IMG/VR virus record: IMGVR_UViG_3300045988_012512
Coordinates: 1-43,981 of that record
Reading direction: 5' to 3' (one strand)
From: a virus
Taxonomy: Duplodnaviria; Heunggongvirae; Uroviricota; Caudoviricetes
DNA length: 43,981 nucleotides
The notes under the pieces are model-generated. The model was not told where the DNA came from and did no database searches. It saw only the letters and a program-made list of their open reading frames with translations. This document shows positions 1 to 43,981 of this stretch, piece after piece. A program made the translations under genes and the position numbers. Numbering within the stretch: the stretch's first letter is position 1; each line of letters starts with the position of its first letter.

Positions 1-55
1 GAATAATGTTGTTGATGCGCGCACCATCTAGCGCTACCCGCGGCGGCTTGACTAC
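1..55. repeat. 55-bp terminal direct repeat, identical to 43927..43981 (genome junction / assembly overlap)
   Basis: Same 55-nt string at both ends of the window; minus-strand tailspike frame is continuous across the junction. Confidence 0.85.
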
Positions 56-9028: not shown

Positions 9029-9057
9029 TTGCACACCCCAATATAATAGGGTACTAT
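9029..9057 (+). promoter_or_regulatory. sigma70-type promoter (TTGCAC-17-TACTAT) for the plus-strand island
   Basis: Canonical spacing; same promoter architecture recurs at 18527, 29673 and 30772. Confidence 0.55.
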
Positions 9058-9087
9058 TCACTTACACCAACAATGAAGGGGTTTAAA

Positions 9088-18526: not shown

Positions 18527-18555
18527 TTGCGCACACCAACATAATAGGGTACTAT
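18527..18555 (+). promoter_or_regulatory. sigma70-type promoter (TTGCGC-17-TACTAT) for the DnaN-like gene
   Basis: Spacer and -10 region nearly identical to the promoter at 9029. Confidence 0.55.
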
Positions 18556-18582
18556 TCAGTTAACTTAAACAGGAGATGAGAA

Positions 18583-30737: not shown

Positions 30738-30771
30738 AACCACCACTCCTCTGTCTCGTTTCGATAAGTGA

Positions 30772-30800
30772 ATAGTATCCTATTATATTGGGGTGTGCAA
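30772..30800 (-). promoter_or_regulatory. sigma70-type early promoter (TTGCAC-17-TACTAT)
   Basis: -35, spacer and -10 nearly identical to the promoter at 9029..9057. Confidence 0.55.
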
Positions 30801-31221: not shown

Positions 31222-31401
31222 ATGACACAGAAAGAAGTAGCAGACTTAATCGGAGTTTCCACTATGACTCTTAATCGCTGGCTTCGGTCCGGTAAGTTCC
31301 CGGAGTGTTGCCGTGTTATTAACGGCTACCGGCAGCCAGGTACGTTTGACCGCGCTACCGTGGAGGCGTGGATTAAGGAGAACGTGAAAGATGCTAACTA
31401 A
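31222..31401 (+). CDS. small HTH DNA-binding protein (AlpA/excisionase-like)
   Basis: MTQKEVADLIGVSTMTLNRWLRSGKFP; AGAGGG RBS (ORF track starts at 31192 with a non-ATG codon). Confidence 0.5.
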   Translation: MTQKEVADLIGVSTMTLNRWLRSGKFPECCRVINGYRQPGTFDRATVEAWIKENVKDAN

Positions 31402-31666
31402 ATTCCAGAAACACATATTAATGTGTGCGCGCAGACTTACCGAGGCGAACGGTGCTTTTACGGTAGATGGGCTTCGTAGATACCGGTTAGATAATTACGG
31501 TGTAAATCCGATTAAACATGCTTTAAATGTTCTTGAGCAACACGGAGAGGTTCTTAATAAAGGAAAGTTTTATCGGGCAACAAGAGCAACGCCGATTACA
31601 GAGAAAGCGAGAAGTATTGGAAAAGTGTTGGTCCCCGAGGGTAATATCTCCCGCGACCTGGAATAA
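31391..31666 (+). CDS. hypothetical protein
   Basis: 91-aa ORF overlapping the upstream stop. Confidence 0.4.
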   Translation: MLTKFQKHILMCARRLTEANGAFTVDGLRRYRLDNYGVNPIKHALNVLEQHGEVLNKGKFYRATRATPITEKARSIGKVLVPEGNISRDLE

Positions 31667-31724
31667 AAGAAAGCCCCGACGCGGTGAACGCCGAGGCCAA
31701 ATTACTTACTGAAGGAAATACAAC

Positions 31725-33992
31725 ATGTCCGATGTAATTTTATCCTACTCGTGGTCTCGTCGCAACGCGCGGGCAGAGAAAAAGGATATAAACGTCAGAA
31801 CCACACACACGGCAACACTGGACGACCTGAAAGAGTTAATCCAGCCGCTTGATGCTGTCCGTGACGGAATTAACCCGAAGACAGCGCCCGGTTATATCAC
31901 CGCCGCGTGCGACTCAACGCACAGCACCGTAAAAGACCCGGAAACCGGTGACTTTAAGCGAGCGCGTAAAGGCTTCTTCTATCGCTGTGACGCGTCTGTA
32001 AGCAAATCATCGCTGGCGTATCTGGACTTTGACAGCGCAACGCCGGAAGAGTATCAGGAAGCGGTGCGCCTGGTTAAGCGTAGCCGCCAGGCTATGTGTC
32101 TCTACACCACGGCATCCCATACCGATGAGTCACCGCGCTTTCGCGTCGTCATGCCGCTGGGCCGCCCGGTCGAAGGGGGCGACATCATCCGCATACGTCA
32201 TGGATTGCTGGAGCACTTCTTCAAAGGCATGGGCGCTGACCGTAGCGGGTTCACTTTGTCTCAGCCCATGTACCTTCCTCCGGTAGGCTCTCAGGTTATC
32301 TGGTCGCGCCGTAACGACCTTATTGACCCGGAAGAGTTACTGGAAGGCATCCCCGCCGTTGACGTTAGCAGCGCATCTGACTACCAGATACCGGAAGAAC
32401 TGCGCACTGCATTTACTGATGCGTTCGAGGCACTGGCGTTCGAATACGGCGGCATCATGACGCCGCGTGGCCTTAAGATGCCCGCCACACCGGAACACGC
32501 AGAAAACTACAGCGACCCGACCCCGCGCCCGGACGACTTCCTGCTGTGCTTCCCGCGCGAGGGATATGAAGCGCCGAACGTAACGATGATTCACGACACC
32601 GACATCACGGCAACCGAAGGCATGTCGCCGAAAGAGGTGTGGAAGTATGCGTGTGATGCGACCGGACTGCCGTTCAGTGAAGTCGCAGAGGCCATCGGAT
32701 GGGGCGCGCGTGAAGCCGTCTCATGCAGCCTGGATGACCTTGAAGACGACGAGGACTCAGAGGAGGACGAGTTACCGGAACCGGTAAAGGCTGATTTCGT
32801 CGTTGAGGGGTACATGCCGTCGGATTGTATCTGGGATATTGTTGGGGAGTCTGGCACGTATAAATCATTCTATACGCTGGGGATGATGTACCTGAGCGCC
32901 GCCGGATACCGGTTTGCCGGGGCAGATACCCAGCGTTGCCACCATTTCTATATCGACGGTGAGGGCGGTGCCACTACACGCACCCGTATTGATGCACTCG
33001 CGGCTAAATATGGCGAGGAAGGTAAAGATTATGTACATGTTATCGATATGGGTGAAGTCGGAAAACTGAAAAGCCTGATTAAGTTAATGCGCGAAACTGC
33101 GGGTGATGAACCCATCGGCATGGTCGCGTTCGACACCCTTAACCAGACGCTGGCCCTGACGATTGATAAGTTCGACGAGAACAGTTCATCAACGGCAATC
33201 GGCATGGGTAAAGTTATCGCCATCCTGAAAGAAGTACGCGACGCAACTAAAGCCGCGGCAGGCGTTGTACACCATACGCCGAAGGGTGGAAAGAAAGCCC
33301 GTGGCAGTGGAGCATTGTATGCTGGTGTCGACGTGGAACTGACAATCGAACGTGCTACCGACCGTCAGATAAACGTATACCACTCTAAATTTAAGCACGG
33401 GCCTCAACAGAAGACGGTTGGCATGGTACTGGAGTCGGTACAGTTTCGTGAAGCACCGCCGCCGAAAGAGTACCGCGCGGTTGAGTTCCTCGGTAGCACA
33501 GAGGAATACGGCACAATAGTAAACCTCGACCTGCCTGAGCCGCACAAGGCGCTTGTGCTGATGCCGTGGGGCTTCGAGCCGTTCAAGACTGATGAGGAGA
33601 AAGAGCGGGAAGAAGGGTTAACTAACGAAGGTAAACAAAATGTACGTAAAACCGTAGAGAACGCCGTCAACAGTTCCGAGTCCACTATACTCGCGGCGTT
33701 TGAACTGGCGGAGGGGACCTACAACGGCAACGAAGGTATCACGGTATCCGCGGCGAATAAGCTCGCACAGTCTGACCCCAACGCAAAGGCGTTTAACTCC
33801 AAAGAAGCCATAGAACGCGGGAAGATTAAGAAAATGGTTGAGGCTGGGTATCTTGTTCCGGGTACTGACGAAAACAATCAGATAATCCCAGGCCGTTACA
33901 GACTTAACACCCGGATAACGGATAACAAGATTCCGAAGACAATATACGAACCCAATGAGATGCTGACAGTGACAGAGGAGGATTTGGAATGA
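31725..33992 (+). CDS. replication protein: primase-like N-terminal domain plus RecA-like ATPase/helicase domain
   Basis: N-terminal LAYLDFD and SHTDESPRFRV (primase-polymerase-like); central GESGTYKS P-loop and MVAFDTL Walker-B-like segment. Confidence 0.55.
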   Translation: MSDVILSYSWSRRNARAEKKDINVRTTHTATLDDLKELIQPLDAVRDGINPKTAPGYITAACDSTHSTVKDPETGDFKRARKGFFYRCDASVSKSSLAYLDFDSATPEEYQEAVRLVKRSRQAMCLYTTASHTDESPRFRVVMPLGRPVEGGDIIRIRHGLLEHFFKGMGADRSGFTLSQPMYLPPVGSQVIWSRRNDLIDPEELLEGIPAVDVSSASDYQIPEELRTAFTDAFEALAFEYGGIMTPRGLKMPATPEHAENYSDPTPRPDDFLLCFPREGYEAPNVTMIHDTDITATEGMSPKEVWKYACDATGLPFSEVAEAIGWGAREAVSCSLDDLEDDEDSEEDELPEPVKADFVVEGYMPSDCIWDIVGESGTYKSFYTLGMMYLSAAGYRFAGADTQRCHHFYIDGEGGATTRTRIDALAAKYGEEGKDYVHVIDMGEVGKLKSLIKLMRETAGDEPIGMVAFDTLNQTLALTIDKFDENSSSTAIGMGKVIAILKEVRDATKAAAGVVHHTPKGGKKARGSGALYAGVDVELTIERATDRQINVYHSKFKHGPQQKTVGMVLESVQFREAPPPKEYRAVEFLGSTEEYGTIVNLDLPEPHKALVLMPWGFEPFKTDEEKEREEGLTNEGKQNVRKTVENAVNSSESTILAAFELAEGTYNGNEGITVSAANKLAQSDPNAKAFNSKEAIERGKIKKMVEAGYLVPGTDENNQIIPGRYRLNTRITDNKIPKTIYEPNEMLTVTEEDLE

Positions 33993-34186
33993 GCGGTAAA
34001 TTTAAAGAAGTAAGCGACGAACTGAAAGGCAATAAATACACCAACCACAGAGGCGAAGTAGTTGAAGTTCTTAACGTAGTTCCTTATGGGCGCGGGTATC
34101 ATGTTGTGTACAGTTACACAGAGGCTTACAGCGTGTACTGCGGGTTAGGTAAGTTTCGCAAAAGATACCCGATAAAGGTGCAATAA
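33989..34186 (+). CDS. hypothetical protein
   Basis: 65-aa ORF, ATGA-coupled to the primase/helicase gene. Confidence 0.35.
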   Translation: MSGKFKEVSDELKGNKYTNHRGEVVEVLNVVPYGRGYHVVYSYTEAYSVYCGLGKFRKRYPIKVQ

Positions 34187-34191
34187 AAAGA

Positions 34192-34210
34192 AAGGGGCAT
34201 TAAGCCCCTT
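34192..34210. terminator. bidirectional intrinsic terminator (AAGGGGC-ATTAA-GCCCCTT)
   Basis: Hairpin between convergent genes, T-runs on both sides. Confidence 0.6.
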
Positions 34211-34415
34211 CACCTAACGCCAGCCACTTGGCGTCTACTTCCAGCACTTCCGCCAGTTTAAACAGCGTTGCCGGGCGGACGTCCTGAGTTACACCGAGAG
34301 CCAGCTGGTTAATCGCACCCTGGGAAACGCCAGTCAGGACAGCCAGCCGGCGCTGGGAGATGCCGAGTTCTTTACGGCGTTGCTCTACACGGATTCCTAG
34401 TTCAGATGGTTGCAT
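34200..34415 (-). CDS. XRE-family (Cro/CI-type) HTH transcriptional regulator
   Basis: LGISQRRLAVLTGVSQGAINQL HTH; AAGGAG RBS; divergent from the promoter at 34480. Confidence 0.65.
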   Translation of the reverse strand: MQPSELGIRVEQRRKELGISQRRLAVLTGVSQGAINQLALGVTQDVRPATLFKLAEVLEVDAKWLALGEGA

Positions 34416-34479: not shown

Positions 34480-34508
34480 TTGACATGTGAATAGTTCGCT
34501 ATTATAGT
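34480..34508 (+). promoter_or_regulatory. consensus sigma70 promoter (TTGACA-17-TATAGT)
   Basis: Perfect -35; overlaps the second copy of the ATGTGAATAGT direct repeat. Confidence 0.6.
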
Positions 34509-35559: not shown

Positions 35560-35690
35560 TTATGTATTCAATCGGTGAGGAAGAGTACGAACACAGTAGA
35601 TACCTTACATCCGCAGAGGCTGAGAATATAATACACGAACTTGACGCTGACAGTTTTGACTACGCATGGATTGAGGAGATTACGGAATGA
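35550..35690 (+). CDS. hypothetical small acidic protein (46 aa)
   Basis: ATG 35550 with GGAGAACAGGG upstream; ATGA-coupled to the exonuclease gene. Confidence 0.3.
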   Translation: MFVIMYSIGEEEYEHSRYLTSAEAENIIHELDADSFDYAWIEEITE

Positions 35691-36928
35691 TTCTTAAAGA
35701 ACGTGGTGGCAATAACGATGTGCACGCAATACTGTCGCCGTCTGGCGCTAAAAAGTGGTTAAGTTGCGCGGCATCACTGGCATGTGAAAAAGATATTCCT
35801 AACACGTCCGGTAAAGACGCCGTATTAGGCACGGCTATGCACACGATAGCGGAGATGCACCTTAACCAGTACATCAAAGGCACTGCGCTGCCGTTAGAGC
35901 GTGAAGTCGGCGCTTACGTGATGGATGAGGGTAAAGGTCAGATTAAGGCGCTAATCAGTCCGATGAAAGGCGCGGTGCTTATTACGGCGGACATGATTGA
36001 GCAGGTGCGCAAGTACACCGACTACTGCAAAGCGATTATCGATGTAGCTACTTACGCCAAACTCGAGATGCGCGTCAATCTTACTGAGGTATTGCACCCC
36101 GGTTACGAAGGCGTTGAGACATTCGGAACCGCTGACCTTGTTGCCGTCCAGGAACTGGCGAACATCGACGAGCACATGCTTATCATCGGCGACCTGAAAA
36201 CTGGACGGCATCGTGTCGAAGCGAAAGAAAACAAGCAGCTTATGCTATACGCTCTCGGTGTTTATCGCCGACTAAAGAGACGTTATAACATCACAGTTGT
36301 TCGTCTGGTCATCTTCCAGCCGTACGCGGGTGGCGCGTCGGAGTGGGACATCTCGGTCGAAGGTCTGGAACTGTTCGCCAAGTTCGCACAGAAACGCGCA
36401 CTGTTGGCTCTTGATGCATATTTCCGCGGTAAGAAGAACCTGAAAGCGTCTGACTTCAAGCCGTCGGTCGATGGTTGTCAGTGGTGTCGGTTCTCTGAAC
36501 AATGCGCCGCGCGTACAAAGACGGTCAATTCTGTACTGGCGGAAGAACTGGAAGACGACTTTGCACTGGAACTGACGCCAGAGCAACTCGTAGCTGAGTA
36601 TGAGAAGCTGCCGTTGTTGCGCCAGCACATCGACAAGGTTGAGAAAGCTATGGTCGCCGCGTTGCATTCTGGTAAGAAAGTGCCGGGGTACAAATTGGTT
36701 GAGGGTCGTCCAGGTAATCGTGCGTGGAAAGATGCCGATGCGGTATTCGAGAAGTACGGTACTATGCTGCAAAAGGTAGTTCTGATGACACCAACCGAAG
36801 CGGTTAAAGTAATACCAGAAGAAGAACTGAAAGACTTCATTACCCGTAAGCCAGGAGCGCCATGCGTCGCAACGGCGGATGACAAGCGTCCTGAGTGGAA
36901 TCAGGTAACAGAGGAGGATTTGGAATGA
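35687..36928 (+). CDS. Cas4/RecB-like PD-(D/E)xK exonuclease with Cys cluster
   Basis: N-terminal LSPSGAKKWLSC, IGDLKTGRH core, C-terminal CQWCRFSEQC. Confidence 0.65.
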   Translation: MILKERGGNNDVHAILSPSGAKKWLSCAASLACEKDIPNTSGKDAVLGTAMHTIAEMHLNQYIKGTALPLEREVGAYVMDEGKGQIKALISPMKGAVLITADMIEQVRKYTDYCKAIIDVATYAKLEMRVNLTEVLHPGYEGVETFGTADLVAVQELANIDEHMLIIGDLKTGRHRVEAKENKQLMLYALGVYRRLKRRYNITVVRLVIFQPYAGGASEWDISVEGLELFAKFAQKRALLALDAYFRGKKNLKASDFKPSVDGCQWCRFSEQCAARTKTVNSVLAEELEDDFALELTPEQLVAEYEKLPLLRQHIDKVEKAMVAALHSGKKVPGYKLVEGRPGNRAWKDADAVFEKYGTMLQKVVLMTPTEAVKVIPEEELKDFITRKPGAPCVATADDKRPEWNQVTEEDLE

Positions 36929-37098
36929 TGGTTTATATTCTCACGCGGTATCACCGCCGATACTCTATTCAAGAACTTGATATTGTTTCTGTCCACGCTA
37001 AACGCGCCGACGCCGACAAAATTGCAGAAGAGAAGAACTCGAAGCATGAGGCGGTGCAGCCATATATTTATAAGGTGGTTCCGAAGAAACTTAAATAA
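36925..37098 (+). CDS. hypothetical small protein
   Basis: GGAGGA RBS before ATG 36925 (ORF track starts at 36895). Confidence 0.35.
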   Translation: MMVYILTRYHRRYSIQELDIVSVHAKRADADKIAEEKNSKHEAVQPYIYKVVPKKLK

Positions 37099-37102
37099 AG
37101 TG

Positions 37103-37131
37103 TTGACACCTGAATAGCAAGCTATTATAGT
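37103..37131 (+). promoter_or_regulatory. consensus sigma70 promoter (TTGACA-17-TATAGT) for SSB and polymerase genes
   Basis: Perfect -35 with canonical spacing. Confidence 0.6.
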
Positions 37132-37190: not shown

Positions 37191-37823
37191 ATGGGTATTA
37201 AACTGAATCTGCGTAAAGTAAACACTGCTTGGGTTAACGTATTCGAACGCGAAAAAGACCGTGAAAACGATGATGGCTCAATCACTAAAGGCCAGTACAG
37301 CGCGACTATCATCCTTCCGTCTGACCATGCTCAAATCGACGCGCTCTACGACACCGTTTACGCTGTAGTTGAAGAAGCGTTAGGTGCAGCCGCCGCCGAG
37401 AAGTGGATGAAGTCCAACTACGGCGAAGGTAAGCACATGGATAAATGTGCGATTAAAGATATCGCTGAGCGCGACAATCCGTTTGAAGACTTCCCGGAAG
37501 GCTTCTACTTCAAAGCGAAGGCACAAAAACAGCCGCTGATTGTAACCTCTAAAAAAGGTGAGACTCAGGTAGAGCAGGACTTCAACGTAGACGGCGAACA
37601 GATTGAAGGTGAACAGGTTTACAGCGGCTGCGTAGCTAACGTAAGCGTTGAAATCTGGTTCAGCCAGAAATACAAAGTTCTCGGTGTTAACCTGCTGGCG
37701 ATTAAATACGTCGGCGAAGGTAAGGCGTTCGGTGGTTCTAAAGTCGCCGCAAGCGTCGACGACCTGGAAGACGACCTTGAGGATGATGGGCCAGCACCAC
37801 GCCGCGAACGTCGTCGCCGCTAA
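37191..37823 (+). CDS. single-stranded DNA-binding protein (T7 gp2.5-like)
   Basis: Block similarity to T7 gp2.5; acidic C-terminal DDLEDDLEDD. Confidence 0.55.
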   Translation: MGIKLNLRKVNTAWVNVFEREKDRENDDGSITKGQYSATIILPSDHAQIDALYDTVYAVVEEALGAAAAEKWMKSNYGEGKHMDKCAIKDIAERDNPFEDFPEGFYFKAKAQKQPLIVTSKKGETQVEQDFNVDGEQIEGEQVYSGCVANVSVEIWFSQKYKVLGVNLLAIKYVGEGKAFGGSKVAASVDDLEDDLEDDGPAPRRERRRR

Positions 37824-37882: not shown

Positions 37883-40132
37883 ATGAGTTACCTGTTCTTA
37901 GACTTTGAAACATTCTCCGAAGCCGATTTGAAGAAAGTCGGCTCCTATGCTTACGCTGAGCACCCAACTACCGAAGTGCTTATCTGCACATACGCTTTTG
38001 ACAACGAGCCAGTGCAGATATGGGATTGCACCGACGGCAGCGACATGCCTGGCGATTTGCACCGCGCACTACGCCGCCTGGTTAAACCAAACAGTCGCAT
38101 TAAGATGGTGTGGCATAACGGTGGACTTTTCGACAGGCTCATCATGAAAAACTGCTGGGACTTTGATATTCCGGTAAGCAACACCATTGATACTATGATT
38201 TGGGCGTTTCGCCACGCGCTGCCGGGTTCGCTAGATGCGCTGTGCGAAGTGCTTGGCGTGTCCGCCGACAACGCGAAAGACAAACGCGGCAAGGCGCTTA
38301 TTCAGCGTTTCTCTAAACCGACACCGAAGAACTACAAAATCCGCCGATACACCGCCGAAACGCACCCGGATGAGTGGGCGCTGTTCATCAAGTACGCCGT
38401 GAGCGACATCACTGCGATGCGTGAAGTCTTCCATAAGCTGCCGCGTTGGGGTAACTCAGAGTTCGAAGACCGTGTACTGGAACTGGACCAGTTAATCAAT
38501 GACCGCGGGTTTAAGGTCGACGTTGCACTGGCGGAAGCCGCGATTGAAGCCGTGGAGAAGCACAAGGCGCAGTTACAGGAAGAAGCCCAACGTAAATACG
38601 GCGGGTCGCTTACCGGTAAAGACTTTCTGCCTATTCTGCGTGAACTCGCTCCTGCGCACAGAATCCACAACGCGCAGAAGTCGACGCTGAATGACCTGCT
38701 GGCTGATGATGATTTACCGGACGACGCTCGCGCGATTATCGAAATGCGCCTCGGGGCGGCGTCCACTGCGTCAACGAAATATAACCCGCTGCTGCTAGGA
38801 CGCTCGTCGGACGACCGCCGTCGTGGTTGTATCCAGTACGGAGGCGCTAAGCGTACATTACGGTTTGCGGGTAAAGGCTTCCAGCCACAGAACCTCGCAC
38901 GCGGGTACTATCACGACGACCCGAAGAATAAAAAGAAGAAAGTACGTTATGACTGGATGTCAGAGAAGGACTGGTGGAGAGTAACGCACCCATTGTCCTA
39001 CGGAATTGACCTGCTGTTTAAAGGCCGTGCGCATCGCCGTTTTGATGTGGCAAAACTGACAGCATCTACGGTGCGTAGCTGCATCATACCGGAAGCCGGG
39101 CATAAGTTTGTCGTAGCTGATTACTCTAACGTTGAAGGTCGCGGGTTGGCATGGCTGGCAGGAGAAGAAACCGCTCTCGATACCTTCCGTGCGGGATTGG
39201 ATATTTACTGTGTAACCGCGGGTAAGATGTTCGGCATGGACCCTGATTACATTCTCGAAAGCCGTAGTGACCTACGCCAGATAGGTAAAGCATGTGAATT
39301 GGGCCTTGGCTATGCTGGTGGTGTCGGTGCTTTCGTTCAGTTTGCTAAGAACCTCGGCTTAAACCTGGTCGATATGGCTAAAACAATGGACGGGACTTTC
39401 CCCGACCATATATGGGCCGCTACTGCACGCGGATACGAGTGGGCGCGTATTCAGGAAGCCAAGCGACCGCCACGCCCCGGTGAAAAAGATGACCGGCCAT
39501 CATATATTCTCGATAAGAAAGTGTGGCGCACATGTGATGCAATCAAGCGTATGTGGCGCGAGTCTCACCCTGAAACAGTAGCATTCTGGCGTGATATTGA
39601 AGACGCAGCTATGGCGGCTATCCGCAACCCAGGTAAAGAGTTCACTGCAGGTCCGCGGGGAGTTAAGTTTTCGCGTAACGTAGAAACAGATAACAACGGC
39701 AACAAAGTCGCTGGTTGGTGGTTGCGGATGACGTTGCCGTCGGGTCGCGTTATGTCATACCCCGGCGTCGGGTTAAGTGTATCGAAAGAGACAGACGAAG
39801 ACGGAAAGGTGTCTACTAACGTGCGCATCAAGTACCAGGGGGAAAACCAGTTAACCCGTCAGTGGGGCTTCCAGTACACCTACTCCGGTAAACTGGTGGA
39901 AAACTGCACTCAGGCGCTGTGCCGTGATTTGCTGGCTAACGCCCTGCTGAATGTAGAAGCAAACGGATATCCAATTGTGCTTCATGTTCACGATGAGATT
40001 ATCTGCGAGACCCCAGATTTACCAGAATACAATGTCGCAGAGCTTGGGCGGTTGATGTGCGAATTACCGGAATGGGCCGAAGGGTTCCCTCTTGTAGCGG
40101 AAGGTGCGGAGATGATGCGTTATGCCAAGTAA
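37883..40132 (+). CDS. family A DNA polymerase with 3'-5' exonuclease domain
   Basis: 749 aa; N-terminal exonuclease motif FLDFETFS; C-terminal VLHVHDEI polymerase motif. Confidence 0.85.
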   Translation: MSYLFLDFETFSEADLKKVGSYAYAEHPTTEVLICTYAFDNEPVQIWDCTDGSDMPGDLHRALRRLVKPNSRIKMVWHNGGLFDRLIMKNCWDFDIPVSNTIDTMIWAFRHALPGSLDALCEVLGVSADNAKDKRGKALIQRFSKPTPKNYKIRRYTAETHPDEWALFIKYAVSDITAMREVFHKLPRWGNSEFEDRVLELDQLINDRGFKVDVALAEAAIEAVEKHKAQLQEEAQRKYGGSLTGKDFLPILRELAPAHRIHNAQKSTLNDLLADDDLPDDARAIIEMRLGAASTASTKYNPLLLGRSSDDRRRGCIQYGGAKRTLRFAGKGFQPQNLARGYYHDDPKNKKKKVRYDWMSEKDWWRVTHPLSYGIDLLFKGRAHRRFDVAKLTASTVRSCIIPEAGHKFVVADYSNVEGRGLAWLAGEETALDTFRAGLDIYCVTAGKMFGMDPDYILESRSDLRQIGKACELGLGYAGGVGAFVQFAKNLGLNLVDMAKTMDGTFPDHIWAATARGYEWARIQEAKRPPRPGEKDDRPSYILDKKVWRTCDAIKRMWRESHPETVAFWRDIEDAAMAAIRNPGKEFTAGPRGVKFSRNVETDNNGNKVAGWWLRMTLPSGRVMSYPGVGLSVSKETDEDGKVSTNVRIKYQGENQLTRQWGFQYTYSGKLVENCTQALCRDLLANALLNVEANGYPIVLHVHDEIICETPDLPEYNVAELGRLMCELPEWAEGFPLVAEGAEMMRYAK

Positions 40133-40413: not shown

Positions 40414-40697
40414 TGACCCCGGAAGGCAAAATACAGAAATACGCGAAAGAGCGATTCGAGGCCCTCGGCGGCCTCGTTCGTAAACTTTCCTATGAGGGGC
40501 GCTCCGGCGCTCCCGACCTGCTGGTGATTCTCCCCGGCGGCATCGTCTGGTTCGTCGAGGTTAAGAAAGACGAAAACACGGAACCAGACCCACACCAGTT
40601 ACGAGAGCATGAGCGGATGCGTAAACGTGGCGCGAATGTTTTTGTCGTCGGATCGTTTAAACAGGTTGACGACCTAATAGCGAACTATTATAGTTAG
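40413..40697 (+). CDS. VRR-NUC domain nuclease
   Basis: GAPDLLVILPGG...VWFVEVKK PD-(D/E)xK core. Confidence 0.65.
   Translation: MTPEGKIQKYAKERFEALGGLVRKLSYEGRSGAPDLLVILPGGIVWFVEVKKDENTEPDPHQLREHERMRKRGANVFVVGSFKQVDDLIANYYS
40666..40694 (+). promoter_or_regulatory. sigma70-type promoter (TTGACG-17-TATAGT) inside the 3' end of the VRR-NUC gene
   Basis: Canonical spacing; -10 identical to the promoters at 34480 and 37103. Confidence 0.45.
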
Positions 40698-43926: not shown

Positions 43927-43981
43927 GAATAATGTTGTTGATGCGCGCACCATCTAGCGCTACCCGCGGCGGCTTGACTAC
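43927..43981. repeat. second copy of the 55-bp terminal direct repeat
   Basis: Identical to positions 1..55. Confidence 0.85.

What the first reader, a model, noticed from the sequence alone, without database searches (positions are those of the whole stretch)
33972..33992. Identical 21-nt gene-junction cassette duplicated at two replication-gene boundaries
ACAGAGGAGGATTTGGAATGA occurs at 33972..33992 (end of the primase/helicase gene) and again at 36908..36928 (end of the Cas4-like nuclease gene). In both places it encodes the upstream protein's C-terminus TEEDLE plus stop, a strong RBS (GAGGAGGA) and the ATG of the next gene in an ATGA overlap. Either a coupling cassette was copied by recombination, or the shared acidic tail is a conserved interaction motif.
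Basis: seen in the sequence. Interest (0 to 1): 0.45.

Follow-up and report, generated by a model that had tools for sequence, protein, structure and literature searches.

The report
Shared acidic tail doubling as ribosome site
The repeated 21 bases are the ends of two phage replication genes that both encode the same conserved C-terminal peptide (…TEEDLE); its codons also serve as ribosome-binding site and start codon for a small inserted gene, so this is convergence under shared constraints, not a copied cassette.

Summary
ACAGAGGAGGATTTGGAATGA occurs exactly twice (33972-33992, 36908-36928). It ends the helicase-primase gene and the DUF2800 PD-(D/E)XK nuclease gene of a Kagunavirus-like siphophage, and each copy overlaps the ATG of a small real gene.

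Relatives decide the interpretation. The conserved element is the peptide [TS]-[ED]-[EDG]-D-L-x(0-3)-COOH:
- D-L is kept in 71/71 distinct helicase-primases and 78/81 distinct nucleases across Kagunavirus, Jerseyvirus, Dhillonvirus and Klebsiella phages.
- Leu is written with up to six codons.
- The peptide persists where no downstream gene exists and where the helicase gene lies on the other strand.

The two junctions show no concerted evolution (p=0.65), and no downstream gene family is found at both. The exact 21-mer occurs once per contig in 11 IMG/VR contigs. Nucleotide identity follows from peptide + Shine-Dalgarno (GAGGAGG) + ATGA overlap.

The same tail ends a third window protein (31391-31666), and DDLEDDLEDD lies in the gp2.5-like SSB tail. 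In unrelated DUF2800-SSB-PolA phages the nuclease tail, the primase-helicase tail or both echo that genome's own SSB tail.

Best reading, inferred rather than shown: a lineage-specific SSB-tail-like docking motif, as with T7 gp4 and gp2.5 on gp5. Both junctions are operon-end landing sites for small accessory genes. Interest is moderate.

The parts
31391..31666 (+). Small protein (91 aa, phrog_5169, function unknown) just upstream of the helicase-primase gene. It ends ...NISRDLE and is the third window protein with the D-L-E-COOH end.
   Evidence: All 11 distinct family members in relatives end in [x]DLE (TATLEDLE, PASPEDLE, ISRDLE), written with other Leu codons (CTG/CTT) and followed by TAA plus a terminator.
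31725..33992 (+). Replicative helicase-primase (755 aa) ending ...MLTVTEEDLE.
   Evidence: Pfam AAA_25; phrog_3228 E=4e-288. In the AF2 model residues 736-755 have pLDDT<50, with a helical turn at 751-754. D753 is invariant and L754 at least 90% conserved in 46 diverse homologues.
33972..33992 (+). 21-mer copy 1: codons T-E-E-D-L-E plus TGA. SD GAGGAGGA at 33975-33982; ATG of the next gene at 33989-33991 (ATGA overlap).
33989..34186 (+). 65-aa accessory gene (phrog_36357), inserted between the helicase-primase stop and the operon terminator.
   Evidence: 12/15 variable sites at codon position 3. Relatives without it go from the stop straight into AAAAAGAAAGGGGC.TTAAGCCCC.
34190..34221 (.). GC-rich hairpin (terminator-like) closing the helicase-primase operon. 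It is the right-hand boundary of the insertion site.
35687..36928 (+). DUF2800 PD-(D/E)XK nuclease with a 4-Cys cluster (413 aa), ending ...EWNQVTEEDLE.
   Evidence: Pfam DUF2800 and PDDEXK_1. D150, D169, K171, C27, C264, C267 and C273 are invariant. AF2 pLDDT 92.5; the tail has pLDDT 86-92 with a helix at 409-412. Fold matches AdnA, Dna2, MGME1, AddB and Cas4.
36908..36928 (+). 21-mer copy 2: codons T-E-E-D-L-E plus TGA. SD at 36911-36918; ATG of the next gene at 36925-36927.
36925..37098 (+). 57-aa accessory gene, inserted between the nuclease stop and the next promoter.
   Evidence: 12/14 variable sites at codon position 3. Relatives without it read ...GAAGAAGATTTRGAATAA-AGTG-TTGACA.
37103..37131 (+). 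Sigma-70-type promoter (TTGACA-17-TATAGT) of the SSB/PolA operon. It is the right-hand boundary of the insertion site.
   Evidence: (D1).
37191..37823 (+). gp2.5-like ssDNA-binding/annealing protein. Its C-terminal tail contains DDLEDDLEDD (nt 37758-37787) followed by GPAPRRERRRR.
   Evidence: Pfam PF10991; phrog_112; motif; tail conservation.
37883..40132 (+). Family A DNA polymerase, a candidate receptor of the tails (inferred only).
   Evidence: Pfam DNA_pol_A; PDB sequence matches to Pol I. No binding evidence.

Best explanation
The two identical 21-mers are the 3' ends of two unrelated replication/recombination genes. Both encode the same short acidic C-terminal peptide, ...V-T-E-E-D-L-E-COOH.

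Shown:
- The peptide, consensus [TS]-[ED]-[EDG]-D-L-x(0-3)-COOH, is under amino-acid-level purifying selection on both proteins across several phage genera.
- It is also present on a third small protein of the module, and the SSB tail contains DDLEDDLEDD.
- In this genome each gene is followed by a small accessory gene inserted exactly at the operon end (before a terminator, before a promoter). That gene is translated from an ATG overlapping the upstream stop (ATGA).
- The codon choices GAG-GAG-GAT for E-E-D form the Shine-Dalgarno sequence 7 nt upstream. GAA-TGA for E-stop forms the ATG.
- Peptide + SD + overlap leave only the Thr, Asp and Leu third positions free. Two independent junctions therefore converge on 19-21 of 21 identical bases.

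Inferred:
- The tail is a lineage-specific, SSB-tail-like docking motif. Through it the helicase-primase, the nuclease and the small protein bind the same site as the tail of the gp2.5-like SSB.
- That site is most likely a basic surface on the family A DNA polymerase and/or the ssDNA-binding groove of the SSB. The model is T7, where the acidic tails of gp4 and gp2.5 dock on gp5.
- An SD-like sequence lies latent in the tail codons, so the two operon ends are ready-made landing sites for promoter-less small genes.
For: Peptide conservation:
- D-L lies within the last 5 residues in 71/71 distinct helicase-primases and 78/81 distinct nucleases. Leu uses TTG, TTA, CTG, CTC, CTA and CTT; Asp uses GAT and GAC.
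- It is also kept in 115/119 Dhillonvirus/Cornellvirus-type helicase-primases.
- It persists where the helicase-primase is only 25-31% identical and encoded on the opposite strand (taxa).
- It persists where the nuclease stop is TAA followed directly by the -35 box and the codons are non-SD GAAGAA.

Only 3 of 514 frames of at least 40 aa in the window end in DLE, and all three lie in the replication module. Two further families carry the tail in relatives.

Codon choice follows the presence of a downstream gene in two genera:
- Kagunavirus: GAAGAA...TAA without a downstream gene, GAGGAG...TGA with one.
- Jerseyvirus: GAAGAC without, GAGGAG or GAGGAT with.

The two junctions behave independently:
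- Of the 8 genomes with overlaps at both junctions (7 relatives plus this window), the 21-mers are 19-21/21 identical. They are exact only in this window and one relative.

Within-genome tail mimicry in unrelated DUF2800-SSB-PolA phages:
- Staphylococcus phage: nuclease EDDFDKL, SSB EDDFDEL.
- Chivirus: primase DDEDEV, nuclease WDDEDDDEV, SSB WDEDEDWEDEV.
- Bordetella BIP-1: nuclease DDFADV..EDLV, SSB DEFDDI..ADLV.
- Streptococcus phage: primase-helicase DDDYDFLD, SSB DDDDDFLN.
- Bacteroides phage: primase-helicase YEDDLM, SSB FYDDLA (domains confirmed).
- Same-genome tails are more alike than cross-genome tails for nuclease-SSB (p=0.003) and helicase/primase-nuclease (p=0.004).

Other support:
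- AF2 predicts the helicase-primase tail to be a flexible, low-confidence extension.
- T7 precedent: PMC12593628 and PMC5686142.
Against: - No binding was tested, and the receptor is unknown.
- The tail lacks the C-terminal aromatic residue of the T7 tails.
- AF2 predicts the nuclease tail to be ordered (pLDDT 86-92). That fits a cis-docked or structural role at least as well as a free docking peptide.
- The helicase/primase-SSB tail similarity test was not significant (p=0.18).
- The permutation tests use 9-11 hand-picked, partly related genomes, and acidic composition inflates all scores.
- The SSB of this clade ends in an Arg-rich stretch after the acidic run, unlike other PF10991 SSBs, so the analogy is imperfect.
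- Helicase-primase genes keep GAGGAG even without a downstream gene, so the codon/overlap correlation is not strict.
Confidence: 0.72

Rival explanations
1. A 21-24 nt 'coupling cassette' was copied from one junction to the other. The route would be ectopic recombination or gene conversion, or small genes that carry the cassette as their 5' leader.
For: - The two copies are identical in 21/21 (23/24) bases.
- Both junctions flank variable small genes: at least 8 families after the nuclease and at least 6 after the helicase-primase.
- In L006 an inserted gene ends with a duplicate of the nuclease 3' end (...GAAGATTTAGAATAAAGTGTTGAC). Recombination inside the tail-coding stretch therefore does happen.
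- In Kagunavirus the SD-type nuclease junction is the same in front of five different inserted gene families.
Against: - There is no concerted evolution: same-genome identity equals cross-genome identity (p=0.65).
- No downstream family is shared between the two junctions.
- The exact 21-mer occurs once per contig in all 11 IMG/VR contigs that have it.
- The peptide predates the junctions. It is present with other codons, other stops, no downstream gene and the opposite gene orientation in distant genera.
- Thr at that position is ancestral in the nuclease (Jerseyvirus, Dhillonvirus), so no import from the helicase junction is needed.
Confidence: 0.08
2. The tail is a cis-acting element of each protein with no common partner. 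It would be a structural latch or an autoinhibitory DNA mimic that folds back on its own DNA-binding surface.
For: - AF2 places the nuclease tail with high confidence (pLDDT 86-92, helix 409-412).
- DUF2800 nucleases at large carry an acidic/hydrophobic tail after the conserved DKRP motif.
- The acidic tails of T7 gp2.5 and Enc34 ORF6 occupy DNA-binding grooves (PMC5686142).
Against: - The same motif ends four unrelated folds: helicase-primase, nuclease, the 91-aa protein family, and a 62-67 aa protein in front of polA.
- The helicase-primase tail is predicted disordered.
- Tails co-vary within genomes, including on non-homologous primase-helicases. That is hard to explain by separate cis roles.
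- Cis docking and trans docking are not mutually exclusive; T7 gp2.5 does both.
Confidence: 0.12
3. The tail is a docking motif, but the receptor is a host protein (for example a replication or proteostasis hub of Enterobacteriaceae) and not a phage protein.
For: All phages with the D-L-COOH version that could be named infect Enterobacteriaceae: Escherichia, Salmonella, Klebsiella. The motif differs in phages of other hosts.
Against: - The tail matches each phage's own SSB tail.
- It matches no host hub motif that I know of, neither the beta-clamp QL[SD]LF motif nor the SSB-Ct DDDIPF motif (from memory, not tested).
- The module encodes its own polymerase, helicase-primase and SSB.
Confidence: 0.1
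4. The apparent peptide conservation is a by-product of conserved regulatory nucleotides, an SD for whatever lies downstream.
For: E-E and E-D codons (GAGGAG, GAGGAT) are SD-like, and many junctions do have an overlapping downstream start.
Against: - The invariant residues are D-L, which are not part of the SD. Leu is written with six codons.
- Insert-less nucleases use GAAGAAGAT...TAA and run into a promoter.
- The 91-aa family ends GAAGACCTTGAATAA followed by a terminator.
- Helicase-primases on the other strand keep the tail.
Confidence: 0.02

Closest known systems
Acidic C-terminal tails of phage T7 gp4 (helicase-primase) and gp2.5 (SSB), which dock on basic patches of gp5 DNA polymerase
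   Same: - It is a short acidic peptide at the extreme C-terminus of a helicase-primase, and it resembles the tail of a gp2.5-family SSB in the same genome.
- A family A polymerase is encoded next door.
- The helicase-primase tail is predicted to be flexible.
- T7 facts come from PMC12593628 and PMC5686142.
   Different: - The motif is T-E-E-D-L-E with Leu at position -2 and no terminal aromatic residue.
- It is also carried by a recombination nuclease and by small proteins.
- The helicase is an AAA_25/RepA-like protein, not a gp4 homologue.
- The SSB of this clade adds an Arg-rich end after the acidic run.
- No binding data exist.
C-terminal tail of bacterial SSB (SSB-Ct, ...DDDIPF) as a hub that recruits many genome-maintenance proteins
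   Same: One short acidic/hydrophobic C-terminal motif ties several replication and recombination proteins together.
   Different: The topology is reversed here. Several different proteins carry the SSB-like tail, instead of many proteins binding one SSB tail. The sequence also differs. This comparison is from memory and was not tested.
Translational coupling by overlapping stop/start codons (ATGA, TAATG) with the SD inside the upstream gene
   Same: The arrangement matches exactly: an ATGA overlap, GGAGG 7 nt upstream of the ATG and inside the upstream ORF, at both junctions.
   Different: Nothing unusual, except that the SD and ATG are written in the codons of a conserved functional peptide. 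This fixes nearly all 21 bases.
Morons and mosaic gene boundaries of tailed phages (small accessory genes inserted between conserved genes)
   Same: Both junctions hold a changing set of small genes placed precisely between a conserved gene end and a terminator or promoter.
   Different: The inserted genes have no promoter or terminator of their own. They depend on the upstream gene's end for their ribosome-binding site.
duf2800-gp2.5-polA module of phages (PMC8093625); Bas14 DUF2800 nuclease as retron type IX trigger (bioRxiv 10.64898/2026.07.14.737667)
   Same: The gene order is the same: nuclease, SSB, PolA. The Dhillonvirus nucleases found here are about 46% identical to the window's nuclease; I take Bas14 to be a Dhillonvirus from memory of the BASEL collection, which neither nor states.
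   Different: In the passages I read, neither paper mentions a C-terminal motif shared with the helicase-primase or the SSB.

Membership tests
Translationally coupled overlapping gene pair | The stop codon of the upstream gene overlaps the start codon of the downstream gene. | tested here: met
   ATGA at 33989-33992 and 36925-36928.
Translationally coupled overlapping gene pair | A Shine-Dalgarno sequence lies 5-10 nt upstream of the downstream start, inside the upstream ORF. | tested here: met
   GAGGAGGA at 33975-33982 and 36911-36918. GGAGG ends 7 nt before the ATG.
Translationally coupled overlapping gene pair | The downstream ORF is a real gene. | tested here: met
   12/15 and 12/14 variable sites at codon position 3; phrog_36357 for the 65-aa ORF.
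Translationally coupled overlapping gene pair | Downstream translation depends on upstream translation. | not testable with these tools
   This needs reporter fusions. The only hint is a weak predicted hairpin that sequesters the SD at the nuclease junction (z=-1.75).
T7-type acidic C-terminal docking tail (gp4, gp2.5) | Located at the extreme C-terminus and net acidic. | tested here: met
   TEEDLE-COOH, with 4 of the last 6 residues acidic.
T7-type acidic C-terminal docking tail (gp4, gp2.5) | The helicase-primase tail resembles the tail of the phage's own gp2.5-family SSB. | tested here: met
   The SSB tail contains DDLEDDLEDD. Comparable within-genome resemblance occurs in other phages. It was significant for nuclease-SSB and helicase/primase-nuclease pairs, but not for helicase/primase-SSB pairs.
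T7-type acidic C-terminal docking tail (gp4, gp2.5) | A C-terminal aromatic residue (Phe) is needed for function. This feature is recalled from memory of the T7 literature. | tested here: not met
   The last residues are D-L-E. Leu at -2 is the only hydrophobic residue.
T7-type acidic C-terminal docking tail (gp4, gp2.5) | The tail is flexible or disordered. | tested here: inconclusive
   The helicase-primase tail has pLDDT<50. The nuclease tail has pLDDT 86-92.
T7-type acidic C-terminal docking tail (gp4, gp2.5) | The tail binds basic patches of the DNA polymerase. | not testable with these tools
There are no experimental data.
Recombination-copied junction cassette (linker sequence) | The two copies evolve in concert within genomes. 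| tested here: not met
   14.86 vs 14.89 identical of 18 nt, p=0.65.
Recombination-copied junction cassette (linker sequence) | Downstream genes are exchanged between the copies. | tested here: not met
   0 of 13 downstream families occur at both junctions.
Recombination-copied junction cassette (linker sequence) | Nucleotide conservation exceeds what the coding sequence requires. | tested here: not met
   VTEEDLE is written by at least 12 different 21-mers at the helicase junction. The exact 21-mer is never found twice in an IMG/VR contig.
DUF2800 / Cas4-like PD-(D/E)XK nuclease | Pfam DUF2800 above the curated cut-off, PD-(D/E)XK catalytic residues and four conserved Cys. | tested here: met
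   228 bits against a cut-off of 21. D150, D169, K171, C27, C264, C267 and C273 are invariant.
DUF2800 / Cas4-like PD-(D/E)XK nuclease | Part of a CRISPR adaptation module (Cas4 in the strict sense). | tested here: not met
   The gene sits in a phage replication module between small ORFs and SSB/PolA. No cas genes were found among the ORFs I examined.

The most novel reading that the evidence does not exclude
E-D-L-E-COOH is one dialect of a general 'SSB-tail code'. In phages with the DUF2800-nuclease / gp2.5-like-SSB / PolA module, the nuclease, the primase-helicase (even non-homologous ones: RepA-like, VapE/D5-like, Prim-Pol) and some small proteins each end in a copy of that genome's own SSB tail motif. 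All of them would then compete for one receptor site on the polymerase or the SSB. In Guernseyvirinae and Dhillonvirus the tail codons also act as a built-in ribosome-binding site, which turns the ends of the replication operons into capture sites for promoter-less accessory genes.
Probability: 0.4. Interest if true: 0.6.

Novelty: new variant of a known kind. Interest (0 to 1): 0.4.

Why it matters
- For annotation: an exact repeat at two gene junctions need not mean a mobile or copied cassette. A shared peptide motif plus SD plus start/stop overlap can fix 21 bases.
- For phage biology: the conserved tail gives a testable handle on how the unstudied replisome of a very common group of coliphages and Salmonella phages (Kagunavirus, Jerseyvirus, Dhillonvirus) is held together. 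These phages are widely used in therapy and biocontrol work.
- The tail links the DUF2800 nuclease to the replisome. A recent preprint reports this nuclease family as a retron trigger.
- If the within-genome tail mimicry holds broadly, replisome partners could be predicted from C-terminal motifs alone.

Tried and rejected
- I looked for distant nuclease relatives with genomic context. P0135 gave no viral contig. Four look-ups gave contigs under 3 kb. Only L120 was usable.
- I looked for a common RNA structure at the two junctions and found none. The helicase junction is unstructured (z=+1.28). The nuclease junction has a weak SD-sequestering hairpin (z=-1.75).
- The helicase/primase-versus-SSB tail similarity test was not significant (p=0.18).
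- A sequence search of PolA against the PDB aligned only the palm/finger motifs. It could not say whether a T7-like basic insertion exists.
- Literature searches for DUF2800 and for shared tail motifs found no description of this motif.
- The search for homologous proteins with the nuclease returned only relatives at least 94% identical. The representative search was needed for diversity.
- I considered that Thr-ACA in the nuclease junction was imported from the helicase junction. I rejected this because Thr is ancestral in Jerseyvirus and Dhillonvirus nucleases.
Full report
**Observation**

The 21-mer ACAGAGGAGGATTTGGAATGA occurs exactly twice in the window, at 33972-33992 and 36908-36928 on the + strand. 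No further match appears with up to three mismatches, and none in any of 100 shuffles. The repeat extends to 23 of 24 bases.

Copy 1 ends a 755-aa ORF (31725-33992). Copy 2 ends a 413-aa ORF (35687-36928). Both proteins end ...VTEEDLE. In each copy GAGGAGGA sits 7 nt before an ATG that overlaps the TGA stop (ATGA) and opens a small ORF: 33989-34186 (65 aa) and 36925-37098 (57 aa).

**What the genome and the genes are**

The window is a complete siphophage genome of about 43.9 kb with a 55-nt assembly overlap at its ends. It is about 91% identical over this region to Escherichia phage K1G and other Kagunavirus phages. Hundreds of Jerseyvirus relatives also match.

- The 755-aa protein is the replicative helicase-primase (Pfam AAA_25; phrog_3228, E=4e-288).
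- The 413-aa protein is a DUF2800 / PD-(D/E)XK nuclease. It has invariant catalytic D150, D169 and K171 and four invariant cysteines.
- Its AF2 model (pLDDT 92.5) matches AdnA, Dna2, MGME1, Exo5, AddB and Cas4.
- Next come a gp2.5-like SSB (PF10991) and a family A polymerase. This is the duf2800-gp2.5-polA module described in PMC8093625.
- Both small downstream ORFs are real genes. Among relatives, 12/15 and 12/14 variable sites lie at codon position 3.

**Peptide or nucleotide cassette?**

I collected 108 related loci from IMG/VR and protein sets.

The peptide is what is conserved:
- D-L lies within the last five residues in 71/71 distinct helicase-primases and 78/81 distinct nucleases. The three exceptions are one L-to-S change, one read-through and one truncated gene.
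- Leu is written as TTG, TTA, CTG, CTC, CTA or CTT, and Asp as GAT or GAC.
- VTEEDLE alone is written by at least 12 different 21-mers at the helicase junction.
- In many Kagunavirus genomes the nuclease ends AGTGAAGAAGATTTRGAATAA and runs, after four bases, into the -35 box of the next promoter. These genomes have no SD, no ATG and no downstream gene, yet the protein still ends VSEEDLE.
- In Dhillonvirus, Klebsiella 37P2-like phages and other clades the helicase-primase is only 25-31% identical and lies on the opposite strand. It still ends ...ATDDDLKD...ASDEDLNS or ...ADEDLE, next to nucleases ending ...TDEDLSNE...SDEDLS or ...SDEDLA.
- 115 of 119 Dhillonvirus/Cornellvirus-type helicase-primases keep the motif.

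**No sign of copying between the two junctions**

- In 35 genomes with both tails, same-genome junction pairs share 14.86 of 18 coding bases. Different-genome pairs share 14.89 (permutation p=0.65).
- Eight genomes (seven relatives plus this window) have an ATGA overlap at both junctions. Their two 21-mers are 19-21/21 identical, and exact only in this window and one relative.
- The exact 21-mer occurs in 11 IMG/VR contigs, once in each.
- Thirteen downstream gene families were found, and none occurs at both junctions.

Once TEEDLE, the SD (GAG GAG GAT) and the overlap (GAA TGA) are imposed, only the third positions of Thr, Asp and Leu are free. Identity is therefore a small coincidence, not an event that needs explaining.

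Codon choice tracks the presence of a downstream gene in two genera:
- Kagunavirus uses GAAGAA...TAA without a downstream gene and GAGGAG...TGA with one.
- Jerseyvirus uses GAAGAC without one and GAGGAG or GAGGAT with one.
- Helicase-primase genes mostly keep GAGGAG even without a follower.

**The junctions as insertion sites**

Relatives without the 65-aa gene pass from the helicase-primase stop, two bases later, into the terminator hairpin AAAAAGAAAGGGGC.TTAAGCCCC. In the window this hairpin follows the 65-aa gene.

Relatives without the 57-aa gene pass from the nuclease stop into the promoter that lies at 37103 in the window.

At least eight gene families alternate behind the nuclease, and at least six behind the helicase-primase. 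Some end with their stop codon inside the -35 hexamer.

In L006 the inserted gene ends with a duplicate of the nuclease's own last codons (...KKEDLE, then the promoter). That insertion therefore happened inside the tail-coding stretch. This is the only trace of recombination at the cassette itself. It fits ordinary mosaic exchange at operon ends.

**The tail is a module-wide motif**

- Only three of 514 frames of at least 40 aa in the window end in DLE. They are the two proteins above and a 91-aa protein (31391-31666, phrog_5169) just upstream of the helicase-primase.
- All 11 distinct members of that family end in xDLE, with CTG or CTT for Leu and a terminator behind.
- In the Klebsiella-phage clade a 62-67-aa protein ending ...TATDEDLE overlaps the polA start.
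- The SSB carries DDLEDDLEDD in its C-terminal tail. An Arg-rich end follows it and is conserved in all these clades.
- DUF2800 nucleases at large have an acidic/hydrophobic tail after a conserved DKRP motif.

**Mechanism (inferred)**

In unrelated phages with the same module, the tails of different replication proteins echo that genome's own SSB tail:
- Staphylococcus phage phiSa2wa_st30: nuclease ...EDDFDKL, SSB ...EDDFDEL...
- Chivirus ER24: primase ...DDEDEV, nuclease ...WDDEDDDEV, SSB ...WDEDEDWEDEV, SNF2 helicase ...WDDEE.
- Bordetella phage BIP-1: nuclease ...DDFADV...EDLV, SSB ...DEFDDI...ADLV.
- Streptococcus phage Javan25: primase-helicase ...DDDYDFLD, SSB ...DDDDDFLN.
- Bacteroides phage BF494P1: primase-helicase ...YEDDLM, SSB ...FYDDLA.

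The SSBs are all PF10991. The primase-helicases belong to other families (VapE/D5-like, Prim-Pol) than the window's.

In a small permutation test, same-genome tails are more alike than cross-genome tails:
- nuclease-SSB: p=0.003;
- helicase/primase-nuclease: p=0.004;
- helicase/primase-SSB: not significant (p=0.18).

The set is hand-picked, small and partly related, so I treat this result as suggestive.

The pattern is the one known from T7. There the acidic tails of gp4 and gp2.5 bind basic patches of gp5 polymerase, and loss of the gp4 tail lowers processivity (PMC12593628; PMC5686142).

AF2 predicts the helicase-primase tail as a low-confidence extension (pLDDT<50 for residues 736-755). It predicts the nuclease tail as ordered (pLDDT 86-92). 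A cis-docked state of the nuclease tail is therefore possible, as is known for gp2.5.

I could not test binding.

**Verdict**

The 'copied cassette' reading is rejected, and the 'conserved tail motif' reading is supported. The exact nucleotide identity is explained by three overlapping constraints.

The motif looks like a new sequence variant of the T7-type SSB-like acidic docking tail. It has Leu instead of a terminal aromatic residue, and it extends to a recombination nuclease and small proteins. Its receptor is unknown.

The finding is ordinary as a 'repeat'. It is moderately interesting as a lead on replisome organisation in a very common phage group.

Noticed in passing
window 1-55 and 43927-43981: An exact 55-nt direct repeat at the two ends of the window. 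It is most likely the assembly overlap of a circular or circularly permuted genome of about 43.9 kb.
   Followed up: no
window 34480-34508, 37103-37131 (exact); 30761-30789, 40666-40694 (3 mismatches); related copies on the - strand at 9029-9064 and 18527-18562: A promoter family TTGACA-N2-TGAATAG-N4-CTATTATAGT. Its spacer is conserved and contains the inverted repeat AATAG...CTATT, which could be a phage-specific operator or extended promoter element. None is expected by shuffles.
   Followed up: partly
window 37758-37823 (SSB residues 190-210): The gp2.5-like SSB ends with an acidic run followed by an Arg-rich end (DDLEDDLEDDGPAPRRERRRR). The Arg-rich end is kept in Kagunavirus, Jerseyvirus, Dhillonvirus and Klebsiella-phage clades. 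Other PF10991 SSBs end acidic/hydrophobic. Its function is unknown. It could pair with the acidic tails.
   Followed up: partly
L006 7240-7425: A 60-aa gene inserted behind the nuclease ends ...KKEDLE. Its last ~27 nt (GAAGATTTAGAATAAAGTGTTGAC) duplicate the ancestral nuclease 3' end plus the promoter. This is a footprint of insertion inside the tail-coding stretch.
   Followed up: partly
L001, L018, L028, L036 (about 150 nt after the nuclease stop); L035, L040, L054 (nuclease stop): Stop codons sit inside the -35 hexamer of the next promoter (..CGT TGA CAC C). In some Jerseyvirus genomes the nuclease itself ends ...DDLEA with its TGA inside TTGACA.
   Followed up: no
window about 32725-32780 (helicase-primase residues ~335-352): An internal acidic linker, SLDDLEDDEDSEEDELPE, lies between the primase and helicase parts. 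AF2 gives pLDDT<50 for residues 327-348. It contains a second DDLE.
   Followed up: no
window 36868-36968: The predicted mRNA structure pairs the SD (GAGGAU) of the 57-aa gene with AUUCUC downstream (-30 kcal/mol, z=-1.75; 8 of 200 shuffles fold as well). No such structure exists at the other junction. It is weak, but fits coupling by ribosome unwinding.
   Followed up: partly
L049 8392-8581 and 13 related loci: A 62-67-aa ORF between the SSB and polA ends ...TATDEDLE and overlaps the polA start by ATGA. One variant has a different middle part but the same N-terminus and tail.
   Followed up: partly
L044 8367-11465; GenBank annotations: Some Jerseyvirus relatives have an intein-containing DNA polymerase (1032 aa against 733-749 aa), and one record is annotated with an intein-containing helicase.
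   Followed up: no
window 35687-36928 (nuclease); literature: The DUF2800 nuclease of phage Bas14 is reported as the trigger of retron type IX. Escape mutants include truncations, so that gene is dispensable there (bioRxiv 10.64898/2026.07.14.737667). That Bas14 is a Dhillonvirus, and so in the clade of the ~46% identical nucleases, is from my memory of the BASEL collection and is not stated in the passages read. This matters for any tail-deletion experiment.
   Followed up: partly
window 31672-31698: A strong GC-rich hairpin (11 pairs) lies between the 91-aa gene and the helicase-primase gene, inside what otherwise looks like one operon. It could be an attenuator or a bidirectional terminator.
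   Followed up: no
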